DNA from: Desulfomicrobium sp.
Lineage (GTDB): Bacteria > Desulfobacterota > Desulfovibrionia > Desulfovibrionales > Desulfomicrobiaceae
Direction of reading: 5' to 3'
DNA length: 64,000 nt
Assembly (NCBI GenBank): GCA_040768745.1
Contig: JAXGMI010000003.1
Span: forward strand, 160,001-224,000
In this document: positions 36,801-39,800 of the stretch, piece after piece
Position numbering within the stretch: position 1 is the stretch's first letter
Layout of the letters: every line of letters begins with the position of its first letter
Program-made: the position numbers

Positions 36801-39800
36801 CTTCCACATTTCCCGGTACCCTTTGCTTGTCACCACTTCCTCCGTGTCAAATTTTCCATTCTTGGCGGGAAAGCGGATCAGGAAGCAAATCAAAATATTG
36901 GATTCATCCTTCTTGAAGACATTGACTTTGCCGTTTCCAGTCACGGGGAACGGCCGGGGCCGAATATACAATCCGACGAATGCGATGGCCTGGATGAAAT
37001 CGTCCGACAGATCGACAAAATTCATCTTTACTCGTTATTTCGTTCGGAATACTTTTCGATTCGGGGATGGAGTCCCCCTTGAACCGCGACAGCCGCCGAT
37101 GACTCCTACTTTCGCAACAGCGATGGTAGGAATTTTGCGGTCAAATGAAACCACGCTCAGACGTGGTTTTTTTATTGGGCCGACTTGTCCGCCCCCAACC
37201 CAAGGAGAACAATATGGGATTCATATATGACACGTTTAAAGCTCGCGCGGCTCTGCCCGAGGAGGTCAAGCGCCTCGGCTGGGTCAGTTTCTTCATGGAT
37301 GTGGCCTCGGAAATGGTCTATCCCGTGGTCCCGCTCTTCCTGACCTCCGTGCTCGGCGCTCCCGTGGCCGTGCTCGGCGCCATCGAAGGTCTGGCCGAGG
37401 TCATCGTCAGCGTGATGAAGGGCGCCTCCGGCTGGCACTGCGACAAGCTGGGCCGGCGTGTGCCGTACATCCGCTGGGGCTACGGACTGGGGGCCATATC
37501 CAAGCCGCTCATGGCCCTGGCCTTTTCCTGGCCCATGATCCTGCTGTCCCGGGCCATGGACCGCACCGGCAAGGGGTTGCGCACCACGGCCCGGGACGCC
37601 CTGATCGCCGACGCCGTGGACGCCTCCCAGGGCGGCCAGGCCTTCGGCTTCCACCGCATGATGGATACGGCCGGGGCCATGATCGGCGTGCTGCTGGCCA
37701 CGATGCTCCTTTTTCTGCTTCCCGGCCACTACCGGACCAGCTTCCTCATCGCGACTGTGCCGGGCCTTGCCGCCGTGTGGCTGACCTTCCGTCTGCACGA
37801 AGCAGCCAAGACCCCGGCCTACGCGCCTTCCCAGGCCCGCGTCCCGTTGGCCGGCAAGCCCTGGTCCGGACTGCCCAAGGCCTTCTGGCTGACCCTGGCC
37901 CCGCTGCTGGTCTTCGCCTTCGCCAATTCCTCGGACACCTTCCTCATCCTGCGCGCCAAGGACCTTGGCCTGTCCGACACGCAGTCCATCATGGCCTACC
38001 TGCTCTTCAACCTCGTCTACGCGCTCAGCGCCTACCCCCTCGGGATCCTGAGCGACCGGGTGGGCCGCTGGCGGATGGTCCTCGGGGGCTGGATGCTGTA
38101 CGGTTTCGTCTATCTCGGCGTGGCCAATGCGGGCATGGGCGACGTGTGGTGGCTTTTCGCCCTGTACGGGCTGTTCATGGGGCTGACCGAAGGCGTGGGC
38201 CGCGCGCTCATCCGCGACCGCATACCCGAGGACCGCAAGGGCACGGCCATGGGCATCTTCCACATGGGCGTGGGGCTCATGATGCTGGCCGGGAGCGTCA
38301 CCGCCGGCCTGTGCTGGGACCTGATCGGTTCGCGCGCGCCGTTCGTGCTCGGCGGCACGGTTGCCTTCCTGGCCGTCATCGTCGCACTGGCGGTGCGCCC
38401 GAAAATCAGAGCCGCGACATAGCGGGAAGGGGGTGGAAACCTTGGGTACCATAGAGTTGCGGGAAATTACGGTCGAACTGCATTTTTCCGTGAACCGCAG
38501 GCGGGACGAAACGGCCGTAATCAGACTAGGAGGCAGAACAGGCCTTCCTTTTCTCGCGTCGAATAAGAAAAAGGTTGCGGAAGTAAATGATGAAACCGGT
38601 CGATTGGCCGACAATGAATACAATATCGCGGCGTAATATTGCATAAGCCAAAAGAAATACGCTTCCAATTAGGCTGAAATACCAAAAATTCGTTGGTATG
38701 ACACTTTTTTTGTTTTTTTCAGAGACAATCCACTGCCAGAAAAAACGCATGAAGAAAAAGAATTGTCCGCAAAACCCTATCATGAGCAACAGCCACTGCG
38801 ACGAATAATTCATGGGACTCCTTGAATCAGCTATTCTTAAAAATACGATTCTTTGCGGCAAAAAGGATAATCGCCGTTATTATATTGAGTAGAATGAACA
38901 CAATGTGGTGCTTCAAAATAAATGGTCCGACATGTACGGTCAGGTTCATGTCCAACCATTCATGCACCTTGAAATGCGCCGAAGCGGGGATGATGCGCTC
39001 GGAAACCATGCCGGGTCCAACGGTCAGCCCCACGGCATGATGGAACTGCCTGCCTCGCGACTCGTGCAGCCGAGCGCCTCCCCCACCCGTGACAATGTAC
39101 TCGACGTTGCCCAAGCTGGTCCGGTTGTAGCCGTGAAAGTCCGCGGCCAGGACGTAATCGATCCCGAGGGCTTCGAAAGCCCGTTCGAACTCCTTTTCGT
39201 CGGCCGTATGCCGCTCCTGGATGTCCGGGGAAACGCAGGGCGGAATGTGCATGAAGACGAAACGATTGCGGTATGCGGCGAGTTCCCTCTGATCGAAAGA
39301 ACCCAGGTATTCCAGGGATTGGCGGTTTGAGAAGCGCTTGTCGAGATGGCTGATGAAAATGAACAGGTCGCCGTTGTGTGCAAAGGAAAAATTGCTCGGC
39401 CCGTACTCCTTCTCGAAATGTTCCAGGGGAAAGCCCTTCGGGTCCACGTCGTGGTTGCCCGGCGTGAAAAAAACTGGGCAGGCAAATCCGAAACCAGCCG
39501 CCCTCTGACGGTAATACGCATGCCAATCGCCGCTGGCCCCATCGACCCAATCCCCGAGGATGACGACAAAGGCCGGATGCGCCACGTGGATATCCCGCGC
39601 CAGGTCCTCGAATGTCCCGGGGCTGCGAGGATCGCCGACTACCACGAAGGTGTACGGCCTCCCGTCGCCGGAATTTTCAAGGACGGCGCGAACCTCTATG
39701 AAGTTCCCGAAATTCGGCGGAAATTCGGACATCCGCGCATGATGGGCCGACAAGCACGCGAAGATCTGCGCTCCCAGGACGAACGCGAACAAGGTCAGCG

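What a model noticed while it worked through the whole genome (the two positions that open the first line are those of the whole stretch)
37054..38422. Fluoride-riboswitch-controlled MFS transporter clade
A second fluoride riboswitch of this genome, with an aptamer and terminator almost identical to the one before crcB, sits directly upstream of a single MFS transporter gene (g02850, 402 aa). I read g02850 and its Desulfovibrionales orthologues as a fluoride-responsive exporter, i.e. a third kind of fluoride-resistance transporter beside CrcB/Fluc and CLC-F (or an exporter of a fluoride-metal complex). No MFS protein has been tied to fluoride resistance so far.
Evidence so far: rna.tsv: RF01734 C3:197054-197115(+) 50.5 bits, E 5.6e-13; g02850 starts at 197214 on the same strand; the sequence shows aptamer, hairpin and T-run, the same platform as at C1:1176627 before crcB (g01097). 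Of the 80 best related loci in other species genomes the first 40 were scanned with Rfam at gathering cut: of the 18 scanned loci with >=59% identity (Desulfovibrionales-like) 10 carry a fluoride riboswitch upstream on the same strand, 7 of them 55-200 nt before the MFS match and 3 about 900 nt upstream; 0 of the 22 scanned loci with <=51% identity have one. tblastn with this genome's CrcB on all 80 loci: crcB directly downstream of the MFS gene on the same strand in 3 loci (L239, L252, L [...]
(Added by a program. Inside this text positions count along the whole contig: contig position 160,001 is position 1 of the stretch shown here. "Call 12" and the like, gene names such as g00115 and contig names such as C1 are that model's own, and its searches are not shown. 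The text may have been shortened before it was handed on; [...] marks where a part breaks off. The agent that wrote the report below was given it as the finding of a first reader that could run no searches.)

Follow-up and report, generated by a model that had tools for sequence, protein, structure and literature searches.

The report
Fluoride-switched MFS transporter gene
A fluoride-sensing RNA switch sits directly in front of an uncharacterised membrane transporter gene that repeatedly travels with known fluoride-resistance genes in sulfate-reducing bacteria and a few other phyla, which marks it as a new, untested part of bacterial fluoride defence.

Summary
A fluoride riboswitch (RF01734, 50.5 bits) lies at 37054-37115 (+). 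It is followed by a switch hairpin, a terminator with a T-run, a ribosome-binding site and a 402-aa MFS gene (37214-38422). The genome's only other fluoride riboswitch precedes crcB, and its leader is 83% identical. The link recurs. 10 of 18 close orthologue loci carry the riboswitch, and 8 of those also carry crcB downstream on the same strand, often followed by DUF190-CBS and enolase. In 151 genomes of the same order, 43 riboswitch operons were examined. The MFS family is the first gene in 6 and a later gene in 3, and a remote MFS relative is first in 3 more, so MFS is second only to crcB. Separate family branches in Nitrospirota and Myxococcota also sit beside crcB. The protein has no named subfamily and folds like the H+-coupled exporters NorA and MdfA. 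The claim that it is a third fluoride exporter is not shown. All 9 genomes with a riboswitch-linked copy also have CrcB, usually in the same operon, and the conserved membrane residues are mostly acidic. My reading is a fluoride-induced, H+-coupled exporter that works alongside CrcB. I put direct fluoride export at about 25%. I found no paper describing this link.

The parts
37054..37115 (+). Fluoride riboswitch aptamer (RF01734). The pseudoknot 3' strand ACUCC lies at 37102-37106.
   Evidence: cmscan 50.5 bits, E 4.9e-11, full model 1-64. Same hit in the genome search.
37104..37131 (+). Switch hairpin (A:B). UCCUACU/UCGC pairs with GCGA/GGUAGGA. It competes with the pseudoknot and forms when no fluoride is bound.
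   Evidence: Present in the minimum-free-energy folds. Both arms change together among related leaders, for example CUACUUUCG..CGAUGGUAG versus CUACUGCC..GGCGGUAG (read from the alignment).
37119..37157 (+). Inferred antiterminator (B:C). 37119-37127 pairs with the terminator's 5' arm 37150-37157: 8 pairs with a one-base bulge.
   Evidence: The leader was folded only up to the terminator loop. With the aptamer's 3' strand held, 6 of 7 bases of the 5' arm are paired. In the free fold 0 of 7 are paired. L003 (6 vs 1) and L125 (6 vs 0) behave the same way. This is inferred: in the full-length equilibrium fold the terminator still wins.
37147..37173 (+). Intrinsic terminator of the expression platform: a 9-pair stem followed by a run of 7 T.
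   Evidence: Terminator scan. The ACCACGC..GCGUGGU+U-run element is conserved in related MFS, prenyltransferase-like and crcB leaders.
37202..37208 (+). Ribosome-binding site AAGGAGA, 5 nt before the ATG.
   Evidence: Read from the sequence.
37214..38422 (+). MFS transporter gene (402 aa, P0001). It has 12 TM helices and no named subfamily. It is monocistronic here, because the next genes lie on the minus strand.
   Evidence: Translation. Pfam MFS_1 140 bits. All NCBIfam hits are far below their cut-offs. AlphaFold2 model pLDDT 91.2, pTM 0.88. Best Foldseek matches are NorA, VMAT, LmrP, MFSD10 and MdfA. Neighbouring genes.

Best explanation
This is a fluoride-inducible transcription unit. Without fluoride, the aptamer's 3' strand pairs with a downstream segment (hairpin 37104-37131), the terminator at 37147-37173 forms, and transcription stops. 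With fluoride bound, the pseudoknot holds that strand. The freed segment 37119-37127 then pairs with the terminator's 5' arm, and RNA polymerase reads into the MFS gene. The gene product is a 12-helix, DHA1-like MFS transporter that most likely works as an H+-coupled exporter. It belongs to the fluoride-stress regulon as a partner of the CrcB fluoride channel, not a substitute for it. The most likely job is ion or pH homeostasis, such as exchanging H+ for a small cation. That would make it a functional analogue of the Na+/H+ antiporters already known in fluoride regulons. It would offset the consequences of HF entry and of electrogenic F- exit through CrcB. Shown here: the riboswitch, the terminator, the gene, the fold and the recurrent operon linkage. 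Inferred: the antiterminator, the transport direction, the H+ coupling and the substrate.
For: Riboswitch and platform. Linkage among the 80 related species loci: RF01734 lies upstream on the same strand in 10 of 18 close loci and 1 of 62 distant loci. crcB lies on the same strand downstream in 8 of those 10 and upstream within the operon in L033. Operon orders from Pfam: RS-MFS-CrcB-DUF190/CBS (L007, L114, L125); RS-MFS-AAA-CrcB-DUF190/CBS-enolase (L003 = L130); RS-prenyltransferase-like-MFS-CrcB-DUF190/CBS-enolase (L020); RS-dynamin-like-CrcB-DUF190-MFS (L033, Nitrospirota). Order sample of 151 genomes: 44 riboswitch hits in 38 genomes, of which 43 were examined. The first gene is CrcB in 24, this MFS family in 6, a remote MFS relative (27% identity, same motifs) in 3, enolase in 3, NADH-dehydrogenase-like in 3, and AAA, MutS-like, Na_H_Exchanger and prenyltransferase-like in 1 each. 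The family is a later operon gene in 3 more. Partner rather than substitute: CrcB is present in all 9 genomes with a riboswitch-linked family copy. Exporter-type fold: the best sequence match among solved structures is NorA (E 1.4e-3). The Foldseek top hits are NorA, VMAT, LmrP, MFSD10 and MdfA. The best NCBIfam hits are drug-efflux models. Invariant D29 and E33 in TM1, E58 in TM2 and R113/R117 in TM4 resemble the acidic TM1 pair plus TM4 arginine of MdfA (that comparison is recalled, not tested). Precedent for a fluoride exporter paired with a cation/H+ antiporter: the C. difficile riboswitch operon CLC + NhaP (PMC11477304, passages read), and Na+/H+ antiporters as the next most common riboswitch-associated class after the exporters (PMC11139923, passages read). 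Weak expression hint: contigs from RNA libraries of 2 studies match the coding region exactly (37239-37673, 37308-37665, 37905-38132). The tool warns that DNA may be present in such libraries.
Against: No assay or residue-level evidence identifies the substrate. 8 of 18 close orthologues have no riboswitch, and neither do 3 of 10 in the order sample, yet they differ from the riboswitch-linked ones at only 4 of 212 conserved positions. The protein is therefore also useful without fluoride control. Most distant members have unrelated neighbours. 17 of 201 Patescibacteria genomes carry the family, while CrcB over its cut-off was found in 1 of 201 and CLC in 0 of 201, so the family does not need CrcB. 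The antiterminator is less stable than the terminator at equilibrium, and for several related leaders the folding test gave mixed results. No promoter was found by the sigma-70 scan (0 sites).
Confidence: 0.45

Rival explanations
1. The MFS is itself a fluoride exporter, a third class beside CrcB/Fluc and CLC-F. It would work as an H+-coupled antiporter for F-, HF or a cationic metal-fluoride complex such as MgF+, giving active extrusion on top of the passive CrcB channel.
For: It is the first gene after the riboswitch in 6 of 43 examined operons of the order, and monocistronic here, as is typical of primary resistance genes. At least four separate family branches sit beside crcB or a riboswitch: the close clade, the 41%-identity clade in G149/G090/G035, L033 and L075. 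Pyrophosphatase (L019, same strand) or enolase (L041) lies next to distant members. The polar residue set is invariant across the whole family. The family occurs in 17 of 201 Patescibacteria genomes, where CrcB and CLC were almost never found. The acidic residues could hold a metal that carries F-; this last point is speculation.
Against: No complementary distribution was seen: 9 of 9 genomes with a riboswitch-linked copy keep CrcB, mostly in the same operon. [quoted passage not shown] The conserved membrane residues are mainly acidic, and the C-terminal half has no conserved charge inside a helix. The Patescibacteria result does not discriminate, because 184 of 201 genomes there lack all three proteins. 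I know of no MFS halide transporter (recalled, not tested).
Confidence: 0.25
2. The MFS exports an organic compound that builds up or becomes toxic under fluoride stress, for example phosphorylated glycolytic intermediates behind a blocked enolase. Alternatively it is a general stress efflux pump.
For: The fold and the nearest families are multidrug or metabolite exporters. Fluoride operons here also carry enolase and general stress or repair genes: AAA ATPase, ClpB and a dynamin-like GTPase. This shows that the regulon reaches beyond ion export.
Against: A strictly invariant set of small polar and charged residues across phyla, including tiny Patescibacteria and DPANN genomes, suggests one simple universal substrate rather than a lineage-specific metabolite. 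No metabolic enzyme is a consistent neighbour.
Confidence: 0.15
3. There is no functional link. The MFS gene is a passenger in crcB operons, and in this genome a rearrangement left a copy of the riboswitch in front of it.
For: In close relatives one riboswitch drives MFS-CrcB-DUF190/CBS (L125). Here crcB and the MFS lie on different contigs, each with a leader that is 83% identical to the other. DUF190/CBS lies elsewhere in this genome. These facts point to an operon split with duplication of the leader.
Against: The linkage recurs in branches only 27-45% identical to one another and in three phyla, with different gene orders. The riboswitch-MFS unit is kept as such in L005, L010 and here. The coding sequence is intact and conserved.
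Confidence: 0.05

Closest known systems
CrcB / Fluc fluoride channel genes under fluoride riboswitches
   Same: Same riboswitch class and the same leader design. The leader is 83% identical to this genome's own crcB leader. The two genes share an operon in many relatives.
   Different: Unrelated protein. CrcB is a ~125-aa four-helix subunit (PF02537), whereas this is a 402-aa 12-helix MFS. CrcB is always present as well.
CLC-F (EriC-F) F-/H+ antiporters
   Same: A riboswitch-controlled secondary transporter, possibly H+-coupled.
   Different: Different fold and family, with no Voltage_CLC match. The genome's single CLC gene has no riboswitch.
Na+/H+ antiporters of fluoride regulons (for example NhaP beside CLC-F in C. 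difficile)
   Same: A second transporter co-expressed with a fluoride exporter. This is the functional analogy I favour. One Na_H_Exchanger follows a riboswitch in the order sample (L150).
   Different: Not a member of that family. No cation transport has been shown.
DHA1-type MFS exporters (NorA, MdfA, LmrP)
   Same: Best matches among solved structures by sequence and by fold. Acidic residues in TM1 and an arginine in TM4.
   Different: Only 13-21% identity. NCBIfam TIGR00880 scores 55 bits against a cut-off of 131. It has its own invariant motifs, RxxDRxGKGxRxxxRDA and GFHRMMD.
MFS efflux genes under ON-type riboswitches (variant FMN riboswitch before an EmrB/QacA pump)
   Same: A riboswitch that turns on an MFS exporter when a toxic ligand appears (PMC11477304, passage read).
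   Different: Different riboswitch class, ligand and MFS subfamily.

Membership tests
Fluoride riboswitch (Rfam RF01734) | Covariance-model score at or above the gathering score of 34 bits over the full model | tested here: met
   50.5 bits, model positions 1-64 of 64.
Fluoride riboswitch (Rfam RF01734) | Lies in the 5' leader of a gene on the same strand, with an expression platform | tested here: met
   99 nt before the ATG at 37214. Terminator at 37147-37173. The platform is conserved in relatives.
Fluoride riboswitch (Rfam RF01734) | Ligand binding switches between terminator and antiterminator (ON switch) | tested here: inconclusive
   The co-transcriptional folding test supports an antiterminator for the window, L003 and L125. 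The full-length equilibrium fold keeps the terminator.
Fluoride riboswitch (Rfam RF01734) | Binds fluoride | not testable with these tools
   Needs in-line probing or a reporter assay.
Major facilitator superfamily (Pfam PF07690 MFS_1) | Profile score above the cut-off, and a 12-helix fold made of two six-helix halves | tested here: met
   140.4 bits against a cut-off of 33.4. The AlphaFold2 model has 12 long helices and pLDDT 91.2. More than 475 MFS structures match at E<=0.001.
DHA1 drug:H+ antiporters | Score above the curated family cut-off | tested here: not met
   TIGR00880 scores 55.2 bits against a cut-off of 131. MdtG, Tet, EmrD and MdtH models are all far below their cut-offs.
DHA1 drug:H+ antiporters | Antiporter motif C in TM5 (GxxxGPxxGG; the motif is recalled) | tested here: inconclusive
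   TM5 reads DTAGAMIGVLLA. The glycines G154 and G158 are conserved, but there is no Pro and no GG.
CrcB/Fluc | PF02537 match | tested here: not met
   The Pfam scan of P0001 returns MFS_1 only.
CLC-F | PF00654 match | tested here: not met
   The Pfam scan of P0001 returns MFS_1 only.
Fluoride-resistance regulon (genes repeatedly placed under RF01734 or beside crcB) | Linkage recurs in independent lineages | tested here: met
   10 of 18 close loci. Also L033 (Nitrospirota), L075 (Myxococcota), the G149/G090/G035 clade, and a remote MFS type in G025/G144/G040.
Fluoride-resistance regulon (genes repeatedly placed under RF01734 or beside crcB) | Contributes to fluoride tolerance | not testable with these tools
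   Needs genetics.

The most novel reading that the evidence does not exclude
This MFS family is a third, mechanistically new class of fluoride exporter. It would be an H+-coupled alternating-access transporter that extrudes F-, possibly as a metal-fluoride cation held by the invariant acidic residues D29/E33/E58. It would be the only recognisable fluoride exporter in the Patescibacteria and DPANN genomes that carry it.
Probability: 0.25. Interest if true: 0.85.

Novelty: new member of a known kind. Interest (0 to 1): 0.6.

Why it matters
Only two bacterial fluoride-exporter families (Fluc/CrcB and CLC-F) and a short list of helper genes are recognised. Here an uncharacterised and widely distributed MFS family is, after crcB, the most frequent first gene behind fluoride riboswitches in one bacterial order. 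It also travels with crcB in other phyla. That gives a concrete, easily testable candidate for either a new fluoride transporter or a missing ion-homeostasis partner of the CrcB channel. Fluoride tolerance also limits microbial defluorination of organofluorine compounds, which is the theme of the review PMC11139923 (abstract and passages read). The same operons point to further untested fluoride-regulon members: a prenyltransferase-like protein, AAA/ClpB ATPases and a dynamin-like GTPase.

Tried and rejected
Baker et al. 2012 (PMC4140402) and Breaker 2012 (PMC3331882) are not held, so their gene lists, which may mention MFS genes, remain unseen. The main text of Weinberg 2010 names only mutS, K+/Cl- transport and formate hydrogen lyase genes. 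Its 8 held supplementary files contain neither 'major facilitator' nor 'MFS'.

Phyletic complementarity (MFS instead of CrcB) was looked for and not found in the order sample. In Patescibacteria it could not be assessed, because CrcB (1 of 201 over its cut-off) and CLC (0 of 201) are almost never found there. Among ten other carrier genomes, CrcB was found in 0 of 5 Patescibacteria/DPANN genomes and in 4 of 5 larger genomes. Genome completeness is unknown.

Searching for residues specific to the riboswitch-linked orthologues gave only 4 of 212 positions, none of them polar. Neighbour analysis of 57 distant loci (107 ORFs) found no conserved partner. The language-model atlas returned only generic MFS clusters. 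Full-length thermodynamic folding did not reveal the antiterminator. No sigma-70-type promoter was found.

The RNA-library contigs do not cover the leader, and contigs cannot show RNA level, strand or ends. treekit's careful tree did not finish, so the quick tree was used, with L063 (57-aa fragment) and L069 (277 aa) left out.
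Full report
THE OBSERVATION. Rfam finds one family at gathering score in the 64-kb window: the fluoride riboswitch RF01734 at 37054-37115 (+), at 50.5 bits over the full 64-position model. The whole genome (3 contigs, 3.09 Mb) holds exactly two copies, this one and C1:1176627-1176688 at 37.9 bits. Downstream of the aptamer lie a terminator-like hairpin at 37147-37170 with a run of T, AAGGAGA at 37202-37208, and an ATG at 37214 that opens a 402-codon frame ending at 38422. 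The next genes downstream are on the minus strand: LAB_N, Metallophos, an ArnT-like PMT_2 protein and a sulfatase-domain protein. The unit is therefore monocistronic. The second riboswitch precedes a 130-aa CrcB gene. From the first aptamer helix to the T-run, the two leaders share 96 of 115 aligned columns (83%).

THE PROTEIN. P0001 matches only Pfam MFS_1 (140 bits). All 13 NCBIfam hits lie far below their curated cut-offs; the best are drug-efflux models (TIGR00880 at 55 bits against a cut-off of 131). The nearest solved structure by sequence is NorA at E 1.4e-3. An AlphaFold2 model built on a 46-sequence alignment is confident (pLDDT 91.2, pTM 0.88) and has 12 long helices. Foldseek ranks NorA, VMAT1/2, LmrP, MFSD10 and MdfA highest, at 13-21% identity. 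All of these are H+-coupled exporters or antiporters, although ranking among MFS folds is weak evidence. Homologues are annotated only as 'MFS transporter'.

Across 46 to 77 family members from many phyla, one set of polar residues is invariant or nearly so. It comprises S25, D29, S32 and E33 (TM1), E58 (TM2), D77 (motif A, recalled name), Y90, R113, D116, R117, K120, R123, R127 and D128 (TM4 and its cytoplasmic end), H147, R148 and D151 (start of TM5), N238 and D281. The C-terminal half has no conserved charge inside a helix.

LINKAGE IN 80 RELATED SPECIES LOCI. The search for related loci returned 80 loci, and I scanned all of them with Rfam at gathering score. Of the 18 loci with >=59% identity (Desulfovibrionales by their record titles), 10 carry RF01734 upstream on the same strand. 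In L003, L005, L006, L007, L008, L010 and L013 it lies 55-200 nt before the match. In L020, L022 and L023 it lies about 900 nt upstream. Of the 62 more distant loci, one carries it (L033, Nitrospirota, 43% identity). The 8 close loci without a hit have none even at E<=1.

tblastn and Pfam give the operon orders:
- L007: RS-MFS-CrcB-DUF190/CBS.
- L003: RS-MFS-AAA ATPase-CrcB-DUF190/CBS-enolase.
- L013: RS-MFS-ClpB-like-CrcB.
- L020: RS-prenyltransferase-like-MFS-CrcB-DUF190/CBS-enolase. L022 and L023 are alike.
- L006 and L008: RS-MFS, then short minus-strand ORFs, then CrcB-DUF190/CBS.
- L033: RS-dynamin-like GTPase-CrcB-DUF190-MFS.
- L075 (Myxococcota, 36% identity): crcB is divergent, immediately upstream.

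So crcB lies on the same strand downstream in 8 of the 10 riboswitch-bearing close loci. A quick maximum-likelihood tree (79 rows; L063 and L069 left out) puts the 18 close loci plus the window in one clade (SH-aLRT 99). Riboswitch-bearing and riboswitch-free members are interspersed within it. The two groups differ at only 4 of 212 conserved positions, none of them polar. The difference is therefore regulatory turnover, not a different protein.

THE REVERSE VIEW: WHAT FLUORIDE RIBOSWITCHES CONTROL IN THIS ORDER. In 151 genomes sampled from the order, RF01734 gave 44 hits in 38 genomes, 42 of them over the cut-off. I fetched 6 kb downstream of 40 of these hits. Together with the window's own two riboswitches and the second riboswitch of G040, which lies inside one of the fetched stretches, that makes 43 examined. 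One sub-threshold hit in G007 was not examined. The first gene downstream is:
- CrcB in 24.
- This MFS family in 6 (G000, G033, G048, G070, G006, and G122, where it is in two pieces).
- A remote MFS type in 3 (G025, G144, G040).
- Enolase in 3.
- NADH-dehydrogenase-like or hydrogenase-like subunits in 3.
- AAA ATPase (after a 76-aa ORF), MutS-like, Na_H_Exchanger and the prenyltransferase-like protein in 1 each.

The family is a later operon gene in 3 more cases: G050; G149, which reads RS-CrcB-DUF190-MFS; and G090, which reads RS-CrcB-MFS. The remote type is 27% identical to P0001 (E 7e-17) and shares its motif layout. The G149/G090/G035 proteins form their own branch, 40-45% identical to everything else. 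G035 has MFS-CrcB adjacency without a riboswitch.

With E<=1e-40, the family occurs in 17 of 151 genomes. Of the 10 genomes with >=60% identity, 7 have the riboswitch. G038 (84%), G141 and G146 do not.

DISTANT MEMBERS. Pfam annotation of one flanking ORF on each side of 57 distant loci (107 ORFs) shows no conserved partner. Three loci do sit beside gene types known from fluoride regulons: inorganic pyrophosphatase upstream on the same strand (L019), enolase convergent downstream (L041), and a Na_H_Exchanger directly downstream (L038). These may be chance, but pyrophosphatase and enolase are single-copy genes.

IS IT A FLUORIDE EXPORTER? The strongest in-silico test would be a complementary distribution with CrcB. 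I found none. CrcB occurs in 116 of 151 genomes of the order, including all 9 with a riboswitch-linked family copy. This genome also has one CLC gene without a riboswitch, and one DUF190/CBS gene far from crcB. Five Patescibacteria/DPANN carriers lack CrcB. That is uninformative, because in 201 Patescibacteria genomes CrcB over its cut-off was found in 1 and CLC in 0, while the MFS family is in 17. The result shows only that the family does not depend on CrcB.

[quoted passage not shown] In C. difficile one fluoride riboswitch drives a CLC gene plus an NhaP antiporter (PMC11477304, passages read). The pattern seen here is an exporter-like MFS, rich in conserved acidic membrane residues, that always accompanies CrcB. 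That fits a partner function (ion or pH homeostasis) better than a redundant exporter. My estimates are: partner function 0.45, direct export of F-, HF or a metal-fluoride complex 0.25, metabolite efflux 0.15, and passenger gene 0.05.

HOW THE SWITCH WORKS (partly inferred). Free folds pair the pseudoknot's 3' strand with a downstream segment (hairpin 37104-37131) and form the terminator. Both arms of that hairpin change together among related leaders, and the terminator is conserved before MFS, prenyltransferase-like and crcB genes alike. I then folded the leader only up to the terminator loop. The terminator's 5' arm is unpaired in the free state (0 of 7 bases). It is paired with 37119-37127 (6 of 7 bases) when the aptamer's 3' strand is held. 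L003 and L125 give the same result, while other leaders are mixed. This supports an ON switch built as a three-hairpin relay. At equilibrium the terminator is still the more stable structure, so the mechanism would have to be kinetic.

EXPRESSION. Contigs from RNA libraries of two studies of anaerobic digesters match the coding region without differences (37239-37673, 37308-37665, 37905-38132). The tool warns that such libraries can contain DNA and that contigs give no RNA level or ends, so this is only a hint.

LITERATURE. Six full-text searches found no paper that links an MFS transporter to a fluoride riboswitch or to a crcB operon. The searches combined 'fluoride riboswitch' with 'major facilitator', 'MFS', 'crcB' or 'transporter'; 'DUF190' with 'fluoride'; 'fluoride', 'MFS transporter' and 'crcB'; and 'fluoride', 'riboswitch' and 'major facilitator superfamily'. 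A P. putida Tn-seq table lists two MFS genes with about a -2 fitness change under fluoride; their relation to this family is unknown (PMC9796867, one passage read). The E. cloacae fluoride operon contains no MFS (PMC5533749, passages read). Baker et al. 2012 and its supplement could not be read, so a bare listing of MFS genes there cannot be excluded.

VERDICT. The transporter is a new, uncharacterised member of the fluoride-riboswitch regulon. Whether it moves fluoride is open, and it can be tested directly.

Noticed in passing
L020:2133-3008, L022:2015-3010, L023:2070-3032: A ~290-aa protein with a prenyltransferase/terpene-cyclase alpha-alpha toroid domain (PF00432) and no NCBIfam match. 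It is the first gene after the fluoride riboswitch, ahead of MFS-CrcB-DUF190/CBS-enolase, and is an uncharacterised fluoride-regulon member.
   Followed up: partly
L003:4156-5580; L116:4168-5679 (-); L013:4103-6730; L033:308-2098: Protein-remodelling or membrane-remodelling genes sit inside fluoride-riboswitch operons: a CDC48/PAN-like AAA ATPase (twice), a ClpB-like ATPase and a dynamin-family GTPase.
   Followed up: partly
L115:363-1631, L117:389-1636, L124:364-1668: A second, remote MFS type (27% identical to P0001, 60% identical among themselves) lies directly after fluoride riboswitches in three genomes of one genus. In L124 a second riboswitch follows 1.4 kb downstream, before enolase-CrcB.
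   Followed up: partly
201 Patescibacteria genomes (G151, G161-G360): In this sample CrcB was found over its cut-off in 1 of 201 genomes and CLC in 0 of 201. The phylum seems to lack both known fluoride exporters. Genome completeness is unknown.
   Followed up: no
own genome C1:1176627-1177157, C1:806002-806283; window 37054-38422: Close relatives have one operon, RS-MFS-CrcB-DUF190/CBS (for example L125). In this genome the three genes lie apart. The MFS gene and crcB each keep a copy of the leader (83% identical), and DUF190/CBS has none. This points to an operon split with duplication of the riboswitch.
   Followed up: partly
L134 (G122:C40:5122-6122): The riboswitch-linked MFS copy matches in two pieces that lack residues ~113-152, the most conserved motif region. 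It may be a pseudogene. L013 and L035 also match in two pieces.
   Followed up: no
window 38526-43658 (-): A convergent minus-strand cluster that looks like lipid A / envelope modification: a LAB_N domain protein, a calcineurin-like phosphoesterase, an ArnT-like PMT_2 glycosyltransferase (weak match to lipid IV(A) L-Ara4N transferase) and a sulfatase-domain protein.
   Followed up: no
window 36621-37025 (-) and 35183-36700 (+): A 134-aa ORF with no family match starts 28 nt upstream of the aptamer on the other strand. An HD_5/HD-domain protein of 505 aa lies beyond it. No sigma-70-like promoter was found for the riboswitch unit.
   Followed up: no
L010:5953-6153 (-); L071:4710-4854 (+); L036:4221-4443 (+): A group I intron, a group II intron domain and a cobalamin riboswitch lie near distant or close MFS loci and are unrelated to the finding.
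   Followed up: no
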